UHGV virus genome: UHGV-0217885
Origin: a virus
Direction: 5' to 3' (one strand)
Length of the DNA: 14,221 nucleotides
Each line of letters opens with the position of its first letter. The first letter of the stretch is position 1. Under the pieces are notes generated by a model. That model did no database searches. It was given only the letters and a program-made list of their open reading frames with translations, and was not told where the DNA came from. The position numbers and the translations under genes were made by a program. Positions 181 to 10,066 of this stretch are shown here, one piece after another.

Positions 181-282
181 ATGTTATCTCTCGTTTATGA
201 AAATCGGTGGACGACGATTTTTCTGCTGATTTTTGCCAGCATGTGCCTCAATAGTGTTATTGGCGCATTACACGCCCAGTAA
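181..282 (+). CDS. Small hydrophobic protein, 33 aa (MLSLVYENRWTTIFLLIFASMCLNSVIGALHAQ), predicted single transmembrane helix
   Basis: ATG at 181 and TAA at 280..282. AAGGA at 165..169 lies about 11 nt upstream of the ATG. An intrinsic terminator follows about 20 nt downstream. Too short to appear in the supplied ORF track; translated manually. Confidence 0.3.
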   Translation: MLSLVYENRWTTIFLLIFASMCLNSVIGALHAQ

Positions 283-301
283 TCGCGACAAAACCAGCCC
301 C

Positions 302-329
302 AAACCGGCACCGTGAATGCCGGTTTTTT
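302..329 (+). terminator. Rho-independent terminator (GC-rich hairpin followed by a T-run)
   Basis: Left arm AAACCGGCA (302..310), loop CCGTGAA (311..317), right arm TGCCGGTTT (318..326), T-run 324..329. Confidence 0.55.
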
Positions 330-488
330 ATGCCATTTTTCCGCGATTTCCCCGTTTTTAGCCGTGCATGCAACAGGTGCATGCTTTTGCATTCGCAGGG
401 GTTGCCCGTTCTGACCGTGCGCCGCCAGAGCTGGCGCGGATCCCGAGTGTTCATGCAACTGCATTAAAACCGCCCCGTAAAGCGGGCA

Positions 489-507
489 GGCGTGGCGGGG
501 AAAGCAT
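489..507. other. cos: cos site (cosN-like 19-nt cohesive-end sequence) of a P2/186-family phage
   Basis: GGCGTGGCGGGGAAAGCAT at 489..507 matches the P2 cohesive end GGCGAGGCGGGGAAAGCAC, as I recall it, at 17 of 19 positions, and the following TGCGCGC is also shared. Orientation relative to the minus-strand portal gene matches the P2 left end. Confidence 0.7.
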
Positions 508-523
508 TGCGCGCAGCACACAC

Positions 524-553
524 TTGCAATTTGATATTTTTGGTGTAAAAAAT
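524..553 (+). promoter_or_regulatory. Weak candidate promoter for the cargo operon
   Basis: TTGCAA at 524..529 followed about 16 to 18 bp later by an A/T-rich -10-like stretch (TAAAAA/AAAAAT, 546..553). Poor match to consensus; position only. Confidence 0.2.
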
Positions 554-615
554 CGGTGTCAATGAGTAGAAGATGAAAAATAATAACCAAAGGTTACTAA
601 ATCAAGGATGTGCCG

Positions 616-1434
616 ATGAAAGTTAGCTATGACGTTGTCATCAAAAGTGGTGATCAAGAAGTTGATATGGAGTATGGCCTTGATACCCTCTCTGGAACGG
701 CTGAGGTGACATGCATACTAGCAGAGGCAATACTCAGAAAAAAAATTATTAAGCGCCGCACTCATGTTAACCCTGCGCGAGCGGTTCTCAAACAAAGCTT
801 TAAAAGTTCTTATGGTCAAAACTTCGACTTGATTGTTAATGAGCCGGAATTAGCTGCCGAATTAAAAAAAATGACCCGTTCTGTGTTCTCGGAAGTCATG
901 GGGTATTTTATTTCTGAATCTCTATATCTGGAAACTAAGGAGCTATCTCCAAAAGCTGCAGGAATTATTGAGGAGCTTGAGGAAATTGAAGATGAACTTA
1001 TTGATCGTATCAGACAACCTTTGGTAAGGATGCATAGGATAAATCTTCAAAAAAACTTTGATGTTGAACTTAACTATAAAAAACCTGCTGGAAAACAAAG
1101 AATAGCAAAGTTAGACACAATGACTGCTACAAACTTGACACAATCAAAAATAAAGCCCGGTCAAGTTAATATTAACGCAGTTATTACTCGATTTAATGCG
1201 AGAACTGGAAATGGTAGGTTAGTTATCGAAGGTGAAGATGATACAGTAGCCTTTGGTTTTTACATGCCTTTAAAGGCTATACCCGCCGCTCAAAAAAGAT
1301 TGGTCTCATTAAATTTACACAATAATAATGGCAGGCAAGATAACTACACATATCTAAAACTTACTGTTAGCAAAGTTGTAGTAAAAAGTGGTGATGTGGT
1401 GAAATATCTAATCCGTATGGTTGAAACTGTATGA
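616..1434 (+). CDS. Hypothetical cargo protein, 272 aa, no transmembrane segment, family not recognised; candidate sensor or partner of the downstream membrane protein
   Basis: ORF-track entry 610..1434 begins at a GTG. The ATG at 616 is preferred because AAGGA at 604..608 sits 7 nt upstream. AT-rich, unlike the phage structural genes. Stop overlaps the next start (ATGA at 1431..1434). Confidence 0.8.
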   Translation: MKVSYDVVIKSGDQEVDMEYGLDTLSGTAEVTCILAEAILRKKIIKRRTHVNPARAVLKQSFKSSYGQNFDLIVNEPELAAELKKMTRSVFSEVMGYFISESLYLETKELSPKAAGIIEELEEIEDELIDRIRQPLVRMHRINLQKNFDVELNYKKPAGKQRIAKLDTMTATNLTQSKIKPGQVNINAVITRFNARTGNGRLVIEGEDDTVAFGFYMPLKAIPAAQKRLVSLNLHNNNGRQDNYTYLKLTVSKVVVKSGDVVKYLIRMVETV

Positions 1435-2156
1435 GAAAGGTGTTGCTGTCTTCGGCTGGCGTGATTGTAGCTGTGTGCGCCTTGTATTACTTCAACTTCG
1501 GAGTAAACGGACATTTATCCAGCAAGACTGATGTTTGGGCGCAGTTTGGTGATTATTTGGGTGGTGTCGTCAACCCTATACTTTCATTTATTACAATTTA
1601 CCTCCTTATAAATTCAATAAAACTTCAAAGGGAGGCTAATTCCAGCCTGATCGATGAAGTAAAAAGGCAAGAATCTTTAGAAGAGTATAAAAAATTTGAA
1701 GTGAGATTTTTCCATTTGGTTGAATGTCAGGATTCTAACTTTGAAAGGTTTTGTGTTCAAGTTGGTGATATTGATGGACAAACTGACGGGGTGGTCGAAG
1801 AATTTACAAGTGGTGCAGCCGTAACTTATCTTGAAGATAATATTGTAATTTTAGTTAAAGCCAAGGTAAAAAAAGAGGTAATAACAAAGTGGTTAAGTGA
1901 AGTGGATGCTAATGATTGCATTTTTTCAGTGGTGCGTCGCTTTTATTTGATTGTGAAGTTGATAGATAATTGCGGGGTTGAACGGGAAGATTATTATGAA
2001 ACATTAGTTAACTTAACTGACATAAAAATAATATCTTTAGTTGCAATGGCTTGTACATACTACGAGTGGGATATCGTAAAGTATATCCATGACAGTAAAA
2101 TACTTGAACGAGATGGAGTTAAAGAGTTTGTTTCGCAAATATCCACTCACGATTGA
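1431..2156 (+). CDS. Hypothetical membrane protein, 241 aa, two N-terminal transmembrane helices plus a soluble C-terminal domain of about 175 aa; candidate effector
   Basis: Hydrophobic segments VLLSSAGVIVAVCALYYFNF and LGGVVNPILSFITIYLLINSI near the N-terminus. AT-rich. Start overlaps the upstream stop, implying translational coupling. Converges on the portal gene. Confidence 0.8.
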   Translation: MRKVLLSSAGVIVAVCALYYFNFGVNGHLSSKTDVWAQFGDYLGGVVNPILSFITIYLLINSIKLQREANSSLIDEVKRQESLEEYKKFEVRFFHLVECQDSNFERFCVQVGDIDGQTDGVVEEFTSGAAVTYLEDNIVILVKAKVKKEVITKWLSEVDANDCIFSVVRRFYLIVKLIDNCGVEREDYYETLVNLTDIKIISLVAMACTYYEWDIVKYIHDSKILERDGVKEFVSQISTHD

Positions 2157-2157
2157 G

Positions 2158-2176
2158 AGCCGCCATGCTGGCGGCT
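2158..2176. terminator. Palindromic hairpin between the convergent cargo operon and portal gene; possible bidirectional terminator
   Basis: AGCCGCCA (2158..2165), loop TGC, TGGCGGCT (2169..2176). No clear U-tract on either strand, so terminator function is uncertain. Confidence 0.3.
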
Positions 2177-2186
2177 AGAGTGGTGA

Positions 2187-3233
2187 TTATTCCGGATTAT
2201 CGAGGGTGTACTCTTTGAACCTGATGACCTCCATGCCGAGCCAGTCGTTTACCTCCCTGAACCTGTCCTGTAGCGGCGACAGCTCATTGCGCACAAATAC
2301 CTTTGCCACCTTCTCAACGTCACCGAGTGAACCGATATTCTCGGGCTTGCCGCCCATGAGCTGGAACGGTACGCGGTGCGCGTCCATCAGGTCGGCGGCG
2401 CTGGCTTTCTTAATGTTGAAAAAGTCATCCTTTGTGGCGACCTCGCTCAGTGGCACGATTTTGATGCCGTCCGGTTTTCCGCCGGGGGCGTAGAAAAACA
2501 GGTTCTTAAAGTTGCCGAGTCCCTTCGAGTTACGCATCGCCTCGCGCAGCGATTCGACGTCGGTCGCACTTTGCGCCGGGTCAGTCACATACATGATGTA
2601 GCCTGCGTGCGCGCCGTTCTGATAATACTTGCGGCGGAACAGCGTCGCGGATTCATTCAGCCAAGCGGAATTAAGCGCGCTGAGATATTCCGGCAGACCG
2701 TAAATCTCCTGATTAATGTCGGGCTCCAGCAGGTGAAACACGGTATCAGGCGCGAACTCGTGCGGCTGGGTGAAGTTTTCCACAAACCAGAAAATCGAAT
2801 CGTCGACTCCGCGTCGGGTGTATTTGGCTGGCGAGGCCAGCAGTTTGATTAACTGGCCGGTGACGCTGTGGCGCTGCTCAAGAAAGGCGTTACCGAACAC
2901 CAGATAATCGAGCGCAAAGCGGCTGAAATCCTGACGGGATAACAACGGGTGCGGAATGTAGGTGCTCGCGAGCACGTTACGCTTAACATAAATTGGCGAG
3001 CTGTGATGCACGGCAGAGCGCAGGCTCTTTGCCAGCCCTGAGAAGCTGACCGGCGGCTCGTACCATTTGCCGTTACTGATGCATTCGACGTAATCCAGAA
3101 TGTCGCGCTTATCGAGTACCGGCACCGGCTCGCCGAAGGTGAACGCTGTCGTTTTTGGCGGTGCGCTGGCGGTCAGTTGTTGTGGTTTGCTGGCCTTTTG
3201 TGCGTTGGCTTTACGGGATTTTTGTTTACCCAT
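2187..3233 (-). CDS. Q: Portal protein (P2 gpQ family), 348 aa
   Basis: Length and sequence resemble P2 gpQ (about 344 aa) as recalled. Lies immediately downstream of P on the minus strand, as in P2. Confidence 0.93.
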   Translation of the reverse strand: MGKQKSRKANAQKASKPQQLTASAPPKTTAFTFGEPVPVLDKRDILDYVECISNGKWYEPPVSFSGLAKSLRSAVHHSSPIYVKRNVLASTYIPHPLLSRQDFSRFALDYLVFGNAFLEQRHSVTGQLIKLLASPAKYTRRGVDDSIFWFVENFTQPHEFAPDTVFHLLEPDINQEIYGLPEYLSALNSAWLNESATLFRRKYYQNGAHAGYIMYVTDPAQSATDVESLREAMRNSKGLGNFKNLFFYAPGGKPDGIKIVPLSEVATKDDFFNIKKASAADLMDAHRVPFQLMGGKPENIGSLGDVEKVAKVFVRNELSPLQDRFREVNDWLGMEVIRFKEYTLDNPE

Positions 3234-6100: not shown

Positions 6101-7168
6101 ATGCGCCCGGATACCCGTTTTAAGTTCAATGCCTATCTGACCCGCGTCGCTGAGCTGAACGGCATCAGCACTGATGACGTCAGTAAAAAATTCACCGTCG
6201 AGCCGTCCGTCACGCAAACACTGATGAACAAAGTGCAGGAGTCATCCGCGTTTCTGCAGACGATTAATATTCTGCCGGTCGCAGAAATGAAGGGTGAGAA
6301 AATCGGCGTCGGTGTGACCGGTACTATCGCCAGCACGACCGACACCTCGGGCGATGATGAGCGTAAGACCGCCGACTTCACCGCGCTTGAGTCCAACAAG
6401 TACGAGTGCGACCAAATTAATTTTGACTTCCATCTGAAATATAAAACCCTCGACCTGTGGGCGCGTTTTCAGGACTTCCAGCGCCGCATCCGCGACGCCA
6501 TTGTCAAACGTCAGGCACTGGATTTCATCATGGCCGGTTTTAACGGTACCACCCGCGCCGCCACCTCTGACCGCACCAAAAATCCGATGCTGCAGGATGT
6601 GGCCGTCGGCTGGCTGCAGAAATACCGCAATGAAGCCCCGACGCGCGTGATGAGCAACATCACCGACGCTGACGGTAAGGTCGTTTCAGCAGTGATTCGT
6701 GTAGGTCGAAACGGCGACTATGAGAACCTCGACGCGCTGGTGATGGACGCCACCAACAACCTGATTGACGAGGTTTATCAGGATGACCCGAAACTCGTTG
6801 CCATCGTTGGCCGTAAGCTGCTAGCCGACAAATATTTCCCGCTGGTGAACAAGCCGCAGGAAAACAGCGAGGCGCTTGCGGCAGATATCATCATCAGCCA
6901 GAAGCGAATCGGCAACCTGCCTGCTGTGCGTGTGCCGTACTTCCCGGCGAATGCCGTGTTAGTGACCACGCTGGAAAACCTCTCTATCTATTTCATGGAT
7001 GAGAGCCACCGCCGCAGCATTGATGAAAACCCGAAAAAAGACCGCGTTGAAAACTACGAGTCGATGAATATCGACTATGTGGTCGAGGCGTATGCCGCCG
7101 GGTGCCTGCTGGAAAACATCACCCTGGGCGATTTCACCGCACCTGCAGCACCGGAAAGCGGAGCCTAA
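6101..7168 (+). CDS. N: Major capsid protein (P2 gpN family), 355 aa
   Basis: Strong similarity throughout to recalled P2 gpN (357 aa), e.g. RFKFNAYL, ECDQINFDF, AVGWLQKYRNEAP, SQKRIGNLPAVRVPYFPA. Confidence 0.95.
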   Translation: MRPDTRFKFNAYLTRVAELNGISTDDVSKKFTVEPSVTQTLMNKVQESSAFLQTINILPVAEMKGEKIGVGVTGTIASTTDTSGDDERKTADFTALESNKYECDQINFDFHLKYKTLDLWARFQDFQRRIRDAIVKRQALDFIMAGFNGTTRAATSDRTKNPMLQDVAVGWLQKYRNEAPTRVMSNITDADGKVVSAVIRVGRNGDYENLDALVMDATNNLIDEVYQDDPKLVAIVGRKLLADKYFPLVNKPQENSEALAADIIISQKRIGNLPAVRVPYFPANAVLVTTLENLSIYFMDESHRRSIDENPKKDRVENYESMNIDYVVEAYAAGCLLENITLGDFTAPAAPESGA

Positions 7169-7171
7169 ACC

Positions 7172-7921
7172 ATGACGAGCCCCGCACAGCGTCACATGAT
7201 GCGGGTCTCGGCCTCTCAAGCCGCGCAGCGGGAGCAAGCCCCGCTGCGCCATGCAACCGCCTATGAGCAGATGCTGGTTAAGCTGGCCGATGACCGCCGC
7301 ACGTTAAAAAACATCCGTTCAAACGAACGTAAAGCCGAGAAAAAGCGCGAGCTGCTGCCGTTCTATGCGCCGTGGGTCGCCGGTGTGCTGGCTGATGGCC
7401 GTGGTGCGCAGGATGACATTGTCATGACCGTCATGCTGTGGCGTCTCGATGCCGGTGATATCGCTGGCGCGCTGGAAATTGCCCCGTACGCGCTGAAATA
7501 CGGCCTCACCTCTGACCACCACCGCACAACACCTTACATGCTGGTTGAGGAAGTGGCGCTTGCTGCACAGCGCCTGCGCGATGCCGGTGAGTCTGTCGAC
7601 CTTTCCTGGCTGCAGACCACTATCGACCTGACCGACGGCGCTGACGTTCCCGATATGGTGCGCGCCCGTCTGCATAAGGTGACAGGCCTGACCCTGCGTG
7701 ATGCCGGTATGAATGCAGAGGCGCTGGCGCAGTTTCAGCGCGCGATGCAGCTCGACCGCAATGCCGGTGTGCGCAAGGAGATTGAGCGACTGGAACGGGC
7801 ATTGAAGCCAAAGCCAGAGGCCGCGCCCCGTAAAACGACTAAACCGCGCACGCGCAAACCTGCCAACAAACCGGCGGCAAAGCGCGGGCGTCCACCAAAG
7901 GCGGTAAAAACCGCCGGTTAA
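7172..7921 (+). CDS. M: Terminase small (endonuclease) subunit (P2 gpM family), 249 aa
   Basis: Position after N, length close to P2 gpM (247 aa), basic Lys/Arg/Pro-rich C-terminal tail. Confidence 0.9.
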   Translation: MTSPAQRHMMRVSASQAAQREQAPLRHATAYEQMLVKLADDRRTLKNIRSNERKAEKKRELLPFYAPWVAGVLADGRGAQDDIVMTVMLWRLDAGDIAGALEIAPYALKYGLTSDHHRTTPYMLVEEVALAAQRLRDAGESVDLSWLQTTIDLTDGADVPDMVRARLHKVTGLTLRDAGMNAEALAQFQRAMQLDRNAGVRKEIERLERALKPKPEAAPRKTTKPRTRKPANKPAAKRGRPPKAVKTAG

Positions 7922-8014
7922 CTGAACGCTCCCCGAGCCGGGCGGCACGCCGGTCAAAGCAGGTTTTGACCCTGACGGCGACCGGCGTCCACCGCCCAAC
8001 CTAATGAGGTTGTC

Positions 8015-8524
8015 ATGACGACAGTAATACTGAATCAGCCCGACGAACCGCAGGACGTACCGGGCGTGGTGATTCCCGCACCGGAGACGGGCGACGCAGT
8101 GATTAAAAACACGTTCTTTTTCCCTGATGTGGATCCGAAGCGGGTGCGCGAACTGATGCGCCTTGAGCAGACGGTTTCCGATGCGCGCCTGCGCAACGCC
8201 ATCAAGACCGGCATGGCGGAAACCAATGCGGAGCTTTACGACTACCGGCTGCGCCAGATTGCCGCAGGGTTTAAGACACTGGCCGACGTGCCTGACGCCG
8301 AGGAAATCGACGGCGAGAATGTGCGCGTTTTCCACTACCTCAGCGCCGTGACGGCGATGGCGACCGCCACCCTGTATGAGCGTTATCGCGGGGTTGAGGC
8401 CACGGGTAAGGGTGACAAAAAAGCCGACAGCGTCGAAACCACCATTGATGACCTGTGGCGGGATATGCGCTGGTCGGTCTCGCGTCTGCAGGACAAGCCG
8501 CGCTGCATCGTGGGTCAGCTCTGA
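8015..8524 (+). CDS. L: Head completion/stabilisation protein (P2 gpL family), 169 aa
   Basis: Same length as P2 gpL (169 aa); position between M and X; stop overlaps the X start (TGATG). Confidence 0.9.
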   Translation: MTTVILNQPDEPQDVPGVVIPAPETGDAVIKNTFFFPDVDPKRVRELMRLEQTVSDARLRNAIKTGMAETNAELYDYRLRQIAAGFKTLADVPDAEEIDGENVRVFHYLSAVTAMATATLYERYRGVEATGKGDKKADSVETTIDDLWRDMRWSVSRLQDKPRCIVGQL

Positions 8525-8730: not shown

Positions 8731-9027
8731 ATGACAGAAGGGGAAAAAGGCGTCCTGTCACTGTTTGTGATTGGCGTGATGATTGTTGTCGGAAAAGTGC
8801 TGGCGGGTGGTGAGCCCATTACCCCGCGCCTGTTTATCGGCCGCATGCTGCTCGGCGGTTTTGTTTCAATGGTCGCCGGTGTTGTTCTGGTGCAGTTTCC
8901 AGATATGTCACTGCCTGCCGTTTGTGGGATTGGATCCATGCTCGGCATTGCAGGTTATCAGGTGGTGGAAATCGCCATTCAGCGCCGCTTTAAGTCACAA
9001 CAGGGGGATAGCGATGCCGATCATTAA
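8731..9027 (+). CDS. Y: Holin (P2 gpY family), 98 aa, hydrophobic membrane protein
   Basis: Hydrophobic segments and a charged C-terminus; located immediately upstream of the endolysin, as in P2. Confidence 0.85.
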   Translation: MTEGEKGVLSLFVIGVMIVVGKVLAGGEPITPRLFIGRMLLGGFVSMVAGVVLVQFPDMSLPAVCGIGSMLGIAGYQVVEIAIQRRFKSQQGDSDADH

Positions 9028-9511
9028 TACTCACCAGAATATCGCCGCATTTCTGGACATGCTGGCCTATTCCGAAGGGACGGCGACGCATCCGCTGACG
9101 AAAAATCGTGGTTACGACGTCATTGTCACTGGCCTTGATGGCAAGCCGGAAATTTTCACCGACTACACCGACCACCCTTTCGCACATGGCAGACCAGCGA
9201 AAGTGTTTAATCGACGCGGCGAAAAATCCACGGCATCAGGGCGTTACCAGCAGCTTTATCTCTACTGGCCGCATTATCAGAAACAACTCGCATTGCCTGA
9301 TTTCAGCCCGTTGTCGCAGGACAAACTTGCGATTCAGTTAATCCGCGAACGCGGTGCCATTGAGGATATTAAGGCGGGGCGTATTGAGCGGGCAATTTCA
9401 CGGTGCCGCAATATCTGGGCGTCGTTACCGGGTGCCGGTTACGGCCAACGTGAGCACAGCCTCGACAAACTGGTCACCGTATGGCGCACCGCTGGCGGGG
9501 TAATGGAATGA
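9014..9511 (+). CDS. K: Endolysin (P2 gpK family), 165 aa
   Basis: ORF-track entry 8783..9511 is in frame; the internal ATG at 9014 (MPIINTHQNIAAFLDMLAYSEGT...) gives the P2 gpK length of 165 aa. The lysozyme-like motif region LAYSEGT is present. Start overlaps the end of Y. Confidence 0.9.
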   Translation: MPIINTHQNIAAFLDMLAYSEGTATHPLTKNRGYDVIVTGLDGKPEIFTDYTDHPFAHGRPAKVFNRRGEKSTASGRYQQLYLYWPHYQKQLALPDFSPLSQDKLAIQLIRERGAIEDIKAGRIERAISRCRNIWASLPGAGYGQREHSLDKLVTVWRTAGGVME

Positions 9512-9921
9512 AAATCCTGATTACACTTCTGGTGCTGACTGTGCTCGGGATGTTGTGGTTGCGCCATGAGAACAGCAATTTATCCCGCTCCTTTGAGACA
9601 GCAAACCGCGTCGCGAGCGAACAAAAGACGACGATTGGCATGCTGAAAAATCAGCTCAGTGTTGCCGGTCAGCTTGCCAGACGTAATGAATCTGCACAGG
9701 TGGCACTGCGTGAACAGCTCGCAAAGGCCAGCGAGGAAGCCAGCCGCCGCGAGCAATCAATAACGAGGTTACTTAATGAAAATGAAGCCTTTCGCCGCTG
9801 GTATAACGCTGCTTTACCTGATGTTGTGCGTCGGTTGCACATCCGCACCGCCTGCGCCAGCGCCGGTGATTGTGGTCAACGGATGCCCGAGAGTGAGCCT
9901 TTGCCCGATGCCGGGAAGTGA
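9508..9921 (+). CDS. lysB: Inner-membrane spanin (Rz-like; P2 LysB equivalent), 137 aa
   Basis: In-frame ATG at 9508 overlaps the K stop (ATGGAATGA). N-terminal transmembrane helix ILITLLVLTVLGMLWL followed by a charged, coiled-coil-like periplasmic region. Contains the embedded out-of-frame o-spanin start. Confidence 0.75.
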   Translation: MKILITLLVLTVLGMLWLRHENSNLSRSFETANRVASEQKTTIGMLKNQLSVAGQLARRNESAQVALREQLAKASEEASRREQSITRLLNENEAFRRWYNAALPDVVRRLHIRTACASAGDCGQRMPESEPLPDAGK

Positions 9922-10066
9922 CCCGAAAACCAATGGTGACCTGAGCGCAGATATCCGCCGCCTTGAGGGCGCGCTGATCGCCTGCGCGCTACAGGTCAAA
10001 ACCGTCAAACACTGTCAGGATGAACTCGATGCAGAAGCACAAAAGCCTGCGCAAAGCGCTGATTAA
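9776..10066 (+). CDS. lysC: Outer-membrane lipoprotein spanin (Rz1-like; P2 LysC equivalent), 96 aa
   Basis: Signal peptide with lipobox-like LCVGC, Pro-rich mature region with several Cys. GAGG at 9765..9768 sits 7 nt upstream of the ATG. Starts inside lysB in another frame and ends inside R. Same length as P2 LysC (96 aa). Confidence 0.7.
   Translation: MKMKPFAAGITLLYLMLCVGCTSAPPAPAPVIVVNGCPRVSLCPMPGSDPKTNGDLSADIRRLEGALIACALQVKTVKHCQDELDAEAQKPAQSAD

What the first reader, a model, noticed from the sequence alone, without database searches (positions are those of the whole stretch)
1431..2156. Gene 2 has a 2-TM anchor plus soluble domain, consistent with a membrane-acting effector
Two hydrophobic helices lie within the first 65 residues (VLLSSAGVIVAVCALYYFNF; LGGVVNPILSFITIYLLINSI), followed by a charged, Cys-containing domain of about 175 aa. 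Small membrane-anchored proteins in defence operons often act as pores or membrane disruptors, and prophage membrane proteins can also mediate superinfection exclusion. Coupling to gene 1 suggests the two act together.
Basis: inference. Interest (0 to 1): 0.55.

Follow-up and report, generated by a model that had tools for sequence, protein, structure and literature searches.

The report
Two-gene AbiC/P-like prophage defence cassette
The gene encodes a real two-helix inner-membrane protein that is a distant, previously unrecognised relative of the lactococcal AbiC/AbiP abortive-infection proteins, always paired with an OB-fold partner, and it sits in the known anti-phage hotspot of a P2/186-like E. 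coli prophage, so it is most likely the membrane effector of an uncharacterised two-gene phage-defence system.

Summary
ORF 1431-2156 (+) encodes 241 aa with two hydrophobic helices (aa 3-23 and 42-63) and a 178-aa acidic helical domain. Its ATG overlaps the stop of gene 1 (616-1434) as ATGA.

The window is a P2/186-like E. coli prophage. The low-GC (37% vs 57%) pair lies between the cos site (489-507) and the portal gene, inside the gpA-gpQ defence hotspot. Rousset et al. 2022 catalogued these exact proteins there as "hypothetical + hypothetical".

Gene 2 matches no Pfam or PADLOC Abi model directly. An exhaustive profile search links it over its full length to proteins carrying Pfam putAbiC and PADLOC AbiC/AbiP (hhalign 99.9%, E 5e-32). 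They share a W-x2-FGD-x2-GG-x3-P motif in TM2, the most conserved region.

Gene 1 (weak DUF7946/DUF7947 matches) is a basic cytoplasmic protein with a C-terminal OB fold. The two genes co-occur in every locus examined. Solo AbiC/P-type genes lack gene 1 (0/29).

Best reading: a two-component variant of the AbiC/P abortive-infection family, with gene 1 as sensor or regulator and gene 2 as membrane effector. Defence activity and membrane damage are inferred, not shown.

The parts
489..507 (+). 186-type cos cohesive-end sequence GGCGTGGCGGGGAAAGCAT. It marks the left boundary of the cargo slot, so the cassette lies between cos and the portal gene.
   Evidence: 2 mismatches to the P2 cos sequence, with 0.01 matches expected by chance. 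Read directly.
556..584 (+). Sigma-70 promoter-like site (GTGTCA-17-AATAAT) 32 nt upstream of gene 1; candidate cassette promoter.
   Evidence: This is a consensus match only (9 of 12 positions) and is not evidence of function.
616..1434 (+). Gene 1: a 272-aa soluble, basic (pI 9.2) partner protein. RefSeq calls the ATG at 616 as the start (WP_073507269); a GTG at 610 is also possible. An AAGGA Shine-Dalgarno sequence lies at 604-608. The protein has an N-terminal alpha/beta domain (aa 1-175, weak DUF7946 match) and a C-terminal OB fold (aa 184-271, weak DUF7947 match, pI about 10).
1165..1428 (+). OB-fold domain of gene 1, carrying the invariant residues R192, T197, G198, G200, R201, F213, N233, L234, N237 and K263 (motif TRFNxRTGNGRL ... 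AFGF ... NLHxNN ... VKY).
1431..2156 (+). Gene 2 (the finding): a 241-aa 2-TM inner-membrane protein (RefSeq WP_073507268), a divergent member of the AbiC/AbiP superfamily.
   Evidence: (phrog_8999, E 7e-83).
1437..1499 (+). TM helix 1 (aa 3-23).
1536..1619 (+). Signature motif W36-x2-F39-G40-D41-x2-G44-G45-x3-P49 plus TM helix 2 (aa 42-63). This is the most conserved stretch of the family and of the wider AbiC/P superfamily.
   Evidence: the same motif appears in the putAbiC set; majority-residue fraction 0.88 here versus 0.59 for the C-terminal bundle.
1620..2153 (+). Cytoplasmic part (aa 64-241): a stalk helix continuous with TM2 (to aa 104), a hairpin and a helical bundle. It is acidic (pI 4.75, net charge about -12). 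The region around aa 160-230 corresponds to the Pfam putAbiC domain of distant relatives.
2158..2176 (.). 8-bp GC-rich hairpin between the convergent gene 2 and the portal gene. The homologous spot in phage 186 is annotated as the W terminator.
   Evidence: H26/H27 feature 'W: terminator'; -15.9 kcal/mol, z -1.55; weak on its own.
2187..3233 (-). P2/186-type portal gene (gpQ/W), the right boundary of the cargo slot.

Best explanation
Genes 1 and 2 form a mobile, translationally coupled two-gene cassette carried as cargo in the cos-proximal defence hotspot of a P2/186-like prophage. Gene 2 is a divergent member of the AbiC/AbiP abortive-infection superfamily. It is an N-in/C-in inner-membrane protein whose highly conserved 2-TM module (W-x2-FGD-x2-GG-x3-P) is the likely executing part. 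Its acidic cytoplasmic helical domain is the likely regulatory part. Gene 1 is a basic cytoplasmic protein with an OB fold that serves as the obligate partner. It most likely senses infection (a phage nucleic acid or a phage protein) or holds gene 2 inactive. On infection by another phage, gene 1 would release or activate gene 2, which would then compromise the membrane or arrest phage development, aborting the infection and protecting the lysogen population. Shown here: the ORF and its helices, the homology to AbiC/P, the OB fold of gene 1, the strict pairing, the hotspot position and horizontal mobility. Inferred: anti-phage activity, the sensor/effector division of labour, and membrane damage as the killing step.
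For: Family link:
- The profile of 42 gene-2 homologues finds 6268 representative proteins (E <= 1e-3) in an exhaustive search.
- Eight of ten of its more distant hits that were scanned carry Pfam putAbiC (PF16872), seven of them at 50-76 bits against a 22-bit cut-off.
- Three of eight such hits match PADLOC AbiC and AbiP.
- hhalign between the two alignments gives probability 99.9%, E 5e-32, over 234 columns including the TM module, stalk and C-terminal bundle.
- Both sets share the W..FGD..GG...P motif.

Pairing:
- Gene 1 lies immediately upstream, on the same strand, in 10 of 10 GTDB genome loci with a full-length gene-2-type match.
- It is absent from 0 of 29 loci that share only the AbiC/P N-terminal module.
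- 30 of 30 evaluable IMG/VR loci with gene 1 have gene 2 downstream.
- The pair is also present in Pseudomonas, Marinomonas, Pseudoduganella, Methylobacter, Chromobacterium, in other E. coli P2 prophages at 45-50% identity, and in the non-P2 Klebsiella phage Kp4865-4.

Context:
- The cassette lies between cos (489-507) and the portal gene of a 186-like prophage. This is inside the gpA-gpQ hotspot shown to hold old/tin and other validated defences (PMC9122126).
- Rousset et al. list WP_073507269 + WP_073507268 there as hypotheticals.
- Cassette GC is 0.37 versus 0.57 for the phage. It is lower than the flanks in all six other loci, whose flanks are all different and include TA modules, Mrr, PIN, Mob and a resolvase.
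- Only 14 of 106 E. coli genomes that match the flanks hold the cassette.

Mechanistic hints:
- TM2 plus the motif is the most conserved part, while C-terminal domains vary across the superfamily.
- Gene 2's soluble part is acidic (pI 4.75). Gene 1 is basic, with an OB domain of pI about 10 and invariant Arg/Lys/aromatic residues.
- Relatives: AbiP needs its TM anchor, binds RNA/ssDNA and is triggered by a phage major tail protein. The AbiP-like PdpSau depolarises and permeabilises infected cells (PMC13064643, PMC12184496, PMC10127798).
Against: - There is no experimental evidence for this cassette, and it was not among the systems tested by Rousset et al..
- Gene 2 itself does not reach any Pfam, PADLOC or NCBIfam Abi model. 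Only 3 of 47 intermediate relatives hit putAbiC. The family link is therefore transitive, and A2 was selected from hits of the A1 profile.
- The mechanism of AbiC and AbiP is itself unknown. AbiC, AbiP and PdpSau are single-gene systems whose cytoplasmic domains are described as nucleic-acid-binding or positively charged, whereas this one is acidic.
- Hotspot position is suggestive, not proof. Rousset et al. note that the same hotspot also carries partition systems and toxins.
Confidence: 0.6

Rival explanations
1. The cassette is an AbiC/P-type defence, but gene 2 does not damage the membrane. As reported for AbiP, the membrane-tethered complex (here with the OB fold supplied in trans by gene 1) would bind phage or cellular RNA/ssDNA at the membrane and block phage DNA replication or the early-to-late transcription switch.
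For: AbiP binds RNA and ssDNA, needs its TM anchor, arrests replication and prevents switch-off of early transcripts (PMC13064643). Gene 1 has a basic OB fold with invariant Arg/Lys/aromatic residues.
Against: The most conserved part of the whole superfamily is the TM2 motif, not a nucleic-acid-binding surface. A mere anchor would not need invariant W, G, G and P residues. Gene 2's own soluble domain is acidic.
Confidence: 0.2
2. The pair is a toxin-antitoxin or addiction module that stabilises the prophage or island. Gene 2 would be a membrane toxin and gene 1 its protein antitoxin, with no dedicated anti-phage role.
For: The layout is a tight two-gene operon with overlapping stop and start codons, a small membrane protein, complementary charges, and neighbours that are often TA modules (ParDE, PIN).
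Against: The upstream gene is larger than the putative toxin and has a two-domain sensor-like architecture. The effector is homologous to proteins with demonstrated Abi phenotypes. The location is a hotspot enriched for defence. TA behaviour and abortive infection are also not mutually exclusive.
Confidence: 0.12
3. Gene 2 is a superinfection-exclusion protein that constitutively blocks DNA entry of incoming phages at the inner membrane.
For: It is a prophage-encoded small inner-membrane protein with a short conserved periplasm-facing loop and motif.
Against: The cassette also occurs outside prophages in chromosomal islands of Pseudomonas, Methylobacter, Marinomonas, Pseudoduganella and Chromobacterium. 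It needs a cytoplasmic OB-fold partner. Its relatives act after DNA entry.
Confidence: 0.06
4. Gene 2 is a MotB/ZorB-like proton-channel stator subunit.
For: There is a weak PADLOC ZorB3 hit (E 0.002, 15.7 bits, aa 28-84) and a weak NCBIfam PRK09040 hit (E 0.03). An acidic residue (D41) lies next to TM2.
Against: There is no ZorA/MotA-like gene in the window or in any related locus. The protein has two TM helices with a cytoplasmic C-terminal domain instead of one TM plus a periplasmic peptidoglycan-binding domain. The Asp is replaced by Ser in the Chromobacterium orthologue. The hit covers only the TM segment.
Confidence: 0.02

Closest known systems
Lactococcal AbiC and AbiP (the 'AbiC/P group'; Pfam putAbiC PF16872; PADLOC AbiC/AbiP)
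   Different: Gene 2 falls below the Pfam and PADLOC model thresholds. It is strictly paired with an OB-fold partner, whereas AbiC and AbiP are single-gene systems and solo relatives lack gene 1 (0/29). Its soluble domain is acidic rather than a basic nucleic-acid binder. The hosts are Proteobacteria and the carrier is a P2 prophage rather than a lactococcal plasmid.
PdpSau of S. aureus prophages (AbiP-like by predicted structure)
   Same: It is a prophage-encoded, membrane-anchored Abi protein that protects the lysogen against unrelated lytic phages. It provides the only experimental link from this protein type to membrane depolarisation and permeabilisation (PMC10127798).
   Different: PdpSau is a single gene with one TM helix and a positively charged cytoplasmic domain carrying a claimed OB-like region in cis. 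Here the OB fold is on a separate protein.
Lambda RexA/RexB
   Same: It works in a similar way: a prophage-encoded pair of a roughly 270-280-aa cytoplasmic sensor and a small inner-membrane effector that depolarises the cell on superinfection (own knowledge; Rex is cited in PMC10127798).
Other cargo of the P2 cos-proximal hotspot (old, tin, retrons, the 2TM+1TM+TIR system of phage AC1, DprA+PRTase)
   Same: The genomic slot is the same, between gpA and gpQ next to cos. The cargo is short, low in GC and swappable, and some of it uses TM effectors (PMC9122126).
   Different: The proteins are unrelated. This cassette is listed there only as 'hypothetical + hypothetical' and was not tested.
Pfam DUF7946 / DUF7947 (gene 1)
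   Same: The domain order is the same, and 12 and 14 of 54 family members match at E <= 0.01. Precomputed PF25678 hits exist on several homologues.
   Different: The window protein scores only 12.8 and 14.4 bits against a cut-off of 27. No literature exists on either DUF.

Membership tests
AbiC/P abortive-infection superfamily (Pfam putAbiC PF16872; PADLOC AbiC, AbiP) | N-terminal transmembrane anchor (two helices in AbiC, one in AbiP) | tested here: met
   Hydropathy peaks at aa 3-23 and 42-63. AF2 helices at 2-23 and 33-104. Both peaks pass threshold in five of six distant orthologues checked; the Methylobacter copy passes only for the first.
AbiC/P abortive-infection superfamily (Pfam putAbiC PF16872; PADLOC AbiC, AbiP) | Direct match to the Pfam putAbiC model above its 22-bit cut-off, or to the PADLOC AbiC/AbiP profiles | tested here: not met
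   No Pfam family at E <= 1. PADLOC gives only ZorB3 at E 0.002. Only 3 of 47 wider-family members hit putAbiC.
AbiC/P abortive-infection superfamily (Pfam putAbiC PF16872; PADLOC AbiC, AbiP) | Full-length remote homology to proteins that do carry putAbiC / AbiC / AbiP | tested here: met
   The profile search reaches putAbiC proteins. hhalign A1 vs A2 gives 99.9%, E 5e-32 over 234 columns. Caveat: A2 was drawn from the hits of A1.
AbiC/P abortive-infection superfamily (Pfam putAbiC PF16872; PADLOC AbiC, AbiP) | Shared TM2 signature W-x2-F-G-D-x2-G-G-x3-P | tested here: met
   W, F, G, D, G, G and P are all invariant in A1. In A2, W, G, G, G and P are invariant and F and D are nearly invariant (>= 90%). 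D is not universal: Chromobacterium has FGS.
AbiC/P abortive-infection superfamily (Pfam putAbiC PF16872; PADLOC AbiC, AbiP) | Acts as a stand-alone single gene | tested here: not met
   A gene 1 homologue is always adjacent: 10/10 genome loci, 30/30 viral loci, plus 7 further loci. Solo AbiC/P-type genes lack it (0/29; L014).
AbiC/P abortive-infection superfamily (Pfam putAbiC PF16872; PADLOC AbiC, AbiP) | Abortive-infection phenotype against phages | not testable with these tools
   This needs plaque, ECOI and MOI-dependent growth assays.
Cargo of the P2-like cos-proximal defence hotspot (Rousset et al. 2022) | Located between the replication gene gpA and the portal gene gpQ, next to cos, in a P2-like prophage | tested here: met
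   The RefSeq context reads replication endonuclease - DinI - ... - cassette - portal, with cos at 489-507. The exact protein accessions are listed in Table S5 of PMC9122126.
Cargo of the P2-like cos-proximal defence hotspot (Rousset et al. 2022) | Variable cargo: present in some and absent from other otherwise similar prophages, with atypical composition | tested here: met
   106 E. coli genomes match the flanks, but only 14 hold the cassette. Isolated P2/186-like phages match only the flanks. GC is 0.37 versus 0.57.
Zorya ZorB / MotB stator proteins | Single N-in TM helix followed by a periplasmic peptidoglycan-binding domain, with a MotA/ZorA partner gene | tested here: not met
   The protein has two TM helices, a cytoplasmic C-terminal helical domain and no OmpA-like domain. 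No ZorA/MotA gene is present in any locus.
Pfam DUF7946 + DUF7947 (gene 1) | Matches to both models above the 27-bit gathering score | tested here: inconclusive
   The window protein scores 12.8 and 14.4 bits. 12 and 14 of 54 homologues match at E <= 0.01. The domain order is consistent with the two-domain AF2 model.
OB-fold proteins (gene 1 C-terminal domain) | Five-stranded closed beta-barrel superposable on known OB folds | tested here: met
Lambda RexAB-type exclusion | Sequence or fold homology to RexA / RexB | tested here: not met

The most novel reading that the evidence does not exclude
The cassette is a previously unrecognised two-component branch of the very large AbiC/P superfamily (more than 6000 representative clusters share the 2-TM module). 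In it the sensing function has been split off onto a separate basic OB-fold protein. In uninfected cells this protein would dock on the acidic, possibly nucleic-acid-mimicking, cytoplasmic domain of the membrane protein. During infection a phage ssDNA/RNA or structural protein would titrate it away, freeing the conserved W-FGD-GG-P helices to oligomerise and collapse the membrane potential. If so, it would provide the first genetically separable sensor/effector pair for a 30-year-old Abi family whose mechanism is still unknown.
Probability: 0.3. Interest if true: 0.7.

Novelty: new variant of a known kind. Interest (0 to 1): 0.55.

Why it matters
AbiC (1992) and AbiP (2004) are classic abortive-infection genes whose mode of action is still unknown. 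The 2026 review could assign them no function from structure.

This analysis shows three things:
- The family's conserved 2-TM module is very widespread.
- A proteobacterial clade of it is invisible to Pfam, PADLOC and NCBIfam.
- That clade is obligately coupled to an OB-fold protein.

A two-gene version separates the likely sensor from the likely effector. That makes trigger identification, toxicity control and membrane assays straightforward in E. coli with standard coliphages.

It also gives a testable identity to one of the many 'hypothetical + hypothetical' entries in the P2 defence hotspot, and it would extend defence-annotation tools. For the lysogen, it would mean this prophage protects its host against other phages.

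Tried and rejected
- Direct family scans of gene 2 against Pfam, NCBIfam and PADLOC gave only weak TM-segment hits to ZorB3 and PRK09040. I rejected these as MotB/ZorB homology on topology, the missing partner and the non-universal Asp.
- A PDB sequence search with both family profiles found nothing.
- Literature searches for DUF7946/DUF7947, putAbiC/PF16872, the RefSeq accessions, the PHROG ids and 'AbiC-like/AbiP-like' returned no relevant description. The newly named P4 systems in PMC13586616 (Bandua, Aernus, Toga, Reve, Crouga, Hailong) have different domains.
- I considered a holin or lysis role. I rejected it because the P2-type lysis block lies elsewhere in the window (about 8731-10066) and the cassette occurs outside phages.
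- I considered the Cys residues as a functional clue. I rejected this because they are not conserved.
- I tried to retrieve authentic lactococcal AbiC/AbiP sequences through the plasmid collection, using a putAbiC protein as query. This returned only Bacillus, Vibrio and other 'putative phage abortive infection protein' genes, so no direct pairwise comparison with AbiC, AbiP or PdpSau was made.
- The hairpin after gene 2 is not statistically remarkable on its own (z -1.55).
Full report
**1. The observation**

Kyte-Doolittle 19-residue averages exceed 1.6 only for windows within aa 1-23 and 42-63. The upstream protein has no such window.

An AlphaFold2 model built on 42 homologues (mean pLDDT 85.7) shows these elements:
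- helix 2-23;
- a short loop;
- one continuous helix 33-104, which is TM2 running into a cytoplasmic stalk;
- a small hairpin at 108-126;
- a helical bundle at 127-237.

Across the 42 sequences, the segment before TM1 carries 1.2 K+R and no acidic residues. The inter-helix loop has a net charge of -1.6. The 20 residues after TM2 carry 3.7 K+R. By the positive-inside rule the protein is N-in/C-in, so the 178-residue soluble part is cytoplasmic. That part is acidic (pI 4.75).

The six cysteines are conserved in only 2-18 of 42 sequences, so "Cys-containing" carries no information. The start codon overlaps the stop of the upstream gene (GTATGA).

**2. Where it sits**

The window is a P2/186-like E. 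coli prophage. To the right of the gene lie the portal, large terminase, scaffold, capsid, small terminase, head completion, lysis and tail/baseplate genes.

In the RefSeq context the order is integrase - CI - CII - ... - replication endonuclease - DinI - small hypotheticals - gene 1 - gene 2 - portal. A 186-type cos sequence (GGCGTGGCGGGGAAAGCAT) lies at 489-507. The cassette therefore fills the roughly 1.7 kb between cos and the 3' end of the portal gene. In phage 186 that interval is about 170 bp.

The cassette has 37% GC, against 57% for the rest of the window. Of 5426 complete E. coli genomes, 106 match the flanks but only 14 hold the cassette. Sequenced P2/186-like phages match only the flanks.

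Rousset et al. (PMC9122126) showed that the cos-proximal region between gpA and gpQ is a hotspot with 1650 gene arrangements, including old/tin and several validated anti-phage systems. Their Table S5 lists exactly WP_073507269 + WP_073507268 (genes 1 and 2) at this locus as "hypothetical + hypothetical". They are not among the tested systems.

**3. What gene 2 is**

Direct scans gave little:
- no Pfam family;
- PHROG 8999, of unknown function (E 7e-83);
- a weak PADLOC ZorB3 hit and a weak NCBIfam PRK09040 hit, both confined to the TM2 region.

Close homologues form a small family of 71 clusters at 90% identity, from Enterobacterales and Aeromonas, all "hypothetical". The alignment shows an invariant W36-x2-F39-G40-D41-x2-G44-G45-x3-P49 motif at the periplasmic end of TM2, plus Q66, N70, Q80, E90, R169 and W213.

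An exhaustive HMM search of 1.84 billion representatives with this profile returned 6268 proteins at E <= 1e-3 and 94 at E <= 1e-30. Of ten hits at the tail of the listed top 150 (280-500 aa) that were scanned:
- eight carry Pfam putAbiC, "Putative phage abortive infection protein", seven of them at 50-76 bits against a gathering score of 22;
- three of the eight scanned against PADLOC match the PADLOC AbiC and AbiP profiles.

These proteins have the same TM motif. Profile-profile comparison of the two alignments gives probability 99.9%, E 5e-32, over 234 columns that span the TM module, the stalk and the bundle. The Pfam putAbiC region maps to about aa 160-230 of gene 2, which includes the conserved FS-x-RRFYLI-x-KLID segment.

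Only 3 of 47 intermediate relatives reach the Pfam model. The gene 2 clade is therefore a divergent subfamily that current annotation models miss.

No solved structure resembles it:
- the PDB sequence search found nothing;
- BFVD found nothing.

**4. What gene 1 is**

Gene 1 (616-1434; 272 aa from the RefSeq ATG) is soluble and basic (pI 9.2). It has only sub-threshold matches to DUF7946 (N-terminal) and DUF7947 (C-terminal). Among its homologues, 12 and 14 of 54 match these models at E <= 0.01.

Its family is broader than that of gene 2. It includes 462 clusters in the profile search, from Pseudomonas, Chromobacterium, Cupriavidus, Methylobacter, Marinomonas, Hahella, Dickeya and Pseudoduganella.

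The barrel is very basic (pI about 10). It carries the family's invariant residues R192, T197, G198, G200, R201, F213 and K263, together with the nearly invariant Y264. That pattern is compatible with nucleic-acid binding but does not prove it.

**5. The two genes are one unit**

| Search direction | Source | Result |
|---|---|---|
| Gene 1 homologues | Pseudomonas veronii, Marinomonas, Pseudoduganella, Methylobacter, Chromobacterium | Each followed, at -14 to +1 nt, by a 234-246-aa gene 2 homologue (30-39% identity) with the same TM2 motif sequence; both hydrophobic segments pass the threshold in all but the Methylobacter copy |
| Gene 2 profile | One genome per GTDB species | 10 of 10 loci with a full-length gene-2-type match have a gene 1 homologue immediately upstream |
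| Gene 2 profile, N-terminal module only | Same scan | 0 of 29 loci have a gene 1 homologue within 4 kb |
| Gene 1 profile | IMG/VR viral contigs | 30 of 30 evaluable loci have gene 2 downstream; in 22 of 32 a P2-type portal gene follows convergently, down to 35% gene 1 identity |
| Gene 2 protein | Klebsiella phage Kp4865-4 (46 kb, not P2-like) | Carries the pair |
| putAbiC protein P0297 | A phage-like contig | Solo, no gene 1 |

In the first group the flanks are unrelated to each other and include ligA, a resolvase, Mrr, ParDE, PIN, Mob and M78-peptidase modules. The cassette GC is always below that of its flanks.

The pair is thus an autonomous, horizontally mobile cassette. It is a long-term resident of the P2 cos-portal slot, and it is specific to one clade of the AbiC/P superfamily.

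**6. Mechanism**

*Established elsewhere:*
- AbiC has two TM helices and reduces capsid-protein production (PMC13064643).
- AbiP has one TM helix and needs it. It binds RNA and ssDNA, blocks phage DNA replication and the early-transcript switch-off, and is not toxic by itself (PMC13064643).
- AbiP is triggered by a phage major tail protein (PMC12184496).
- PdpSau is an AbiP-like protein of S. aureus prophages. It causes membrane depolarisation and propidium-iodide uptake within 10 minutes of infection (PMC10127798).

*Shown here:*
- TM2 plus its motif is the most conserved segment. Its majority-residue fraction is 0.88, against 0.59 for the bundle; in the wider family the values are 0.65 and 0.35.
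- Many superfamily members share only this module and have different C-terminal domains.

*Inference:* the membrane module is the executing part and the cytoplasmic domain is the regulatory part. In this clade, sensing or control is delegated to the OB-fold protein. The opposite charges (gene 2 soluble part pI 4.75; gene 1 OB domain pI about 10) suggest a resting complex that a phage ligand could disrupt.

I put the probability that the cassette is an anti-phage system at about 0.7. That gene 2 is an AbiC/P homologue I put at about 0.95. The specific sensor-releases-membrane-effector model I put at about 0.3-0.4.

The rivals are:
- an AbiP-style nucleic-acid or replication block without membrane damage;
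- a plain toxin-antitoxin addiction module;
- superinfection exclusion at DNA entry;
- a MotB/ZorB-like channel. This last one is rejected because the topology is wrong, there is no ZorA gene, and the Asp is replaced by Ser in Chromobacterium.

**7. Novelty and verdict**

The protein kind is known (the AbiC/P group), and the genomic slot is known (the P2 hotspot). Three things are new:
- this "hypothetical" belongs to that group;
- a whole proteobacterial clade of the group escapes Pfam, PADLOC and NCBIfam;
- that clade is an obligate two-gene system with a DUF7946/DUF7947 OB-fold partner.

No paper in the searchable library describes it. I classify it as a new variant of a known kind, with interest 0.55. 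It is a solid and easily testable defence candidate that could open up an old, mechanistically opaque Abi family. Every functional claim remains computational.

Noticed in passing
window 489-507: A 186-type cos cohesive-end sequence (GGCGTGGCGGGGAAAGCAT) is present. The cassette therefore lies on the portal side of cos, at the extreme left end of the packaged genome, rather than on the gpA/old side where P2 carries old and tin.
   Followed up: partly
window 195-590 (both strands): Short overlapping ORFs across the cos region are annotated as hypothetical proteins in RefSeq (WP_073507529, minus strand; WP_073507270, plus strand). They overlap each other and cos, have normal phage GC, and are probably not genes. 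A hairpin at 366-384 followed by a T-run looks like a terminator.
   Followed up: no
L001 14702-18355 (E. coli DETEC-S565): In this otherwise identical prophage the P2-type major capsid gene is split by an IS21-family ISEc12 insertion, so that copy is defective. The capsid gene in the window (6101-7168) is intact.
   Followed up: no
L023 3145-3987 (Marinobacterium rhizophilum): The gene 1 homologue is split into two ORFs (profile positions 1-158 and 162-272) while gene 2 downstream is intact. This is either a pseudogene or a sequencing error, and it is the only imperfect pair seen.
   Followed up: no
L024 1036-2639 (Pseudomonas gessardii): This pair is intermediate. Its membrane protein scores equally well with the gene 2 profile and the putAbiC-set profile (115 vs 128 bits). 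Its upstream protein is only a distant gene 1 relative (76 bits). Paired AbiC/P systems may therefore extend further into sequence space than sampled here.
   Followed up: no
L013 4824-5528 (Chromobacterium haemolyticum): In this orthologue the otherwise invariant FGD of the TM2 motif reads FGS and NP reads GP, so the Asp is not essential family-wide.
   Followed up: partly
L042 and L043 (Leptospira sp. 'Mane'); phages LE1 and CZ214-LE1: Proteins that share only the AbiC/P 2-TM module occur twice about 10 kb apart in one Leptospira chromosome and in Leptospira phages. A Shewanella Mu-like phage annotates its copy as a 'two helix-containing protein'. The module is widely reused in phages of distant hosts.
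   Followed up: no
L006/L008/L009 3055-3795 (other E. coli P2-like prophages): In prophages that carry the 45%-identity version of the cassette, a DUF4145 gene sits on the opposite strand just upstream in the same hotspot. It may be a second cargo module stacked with the pair.
   Followed up: no
window 7319-8335 (-) and several other long antisense ORFs: A 338-aa ORF lies antisense to the small terminase and head-completion genes. It is probably an artefact of the high GC content (60-64%) rather than a gene.
   Followed up: no
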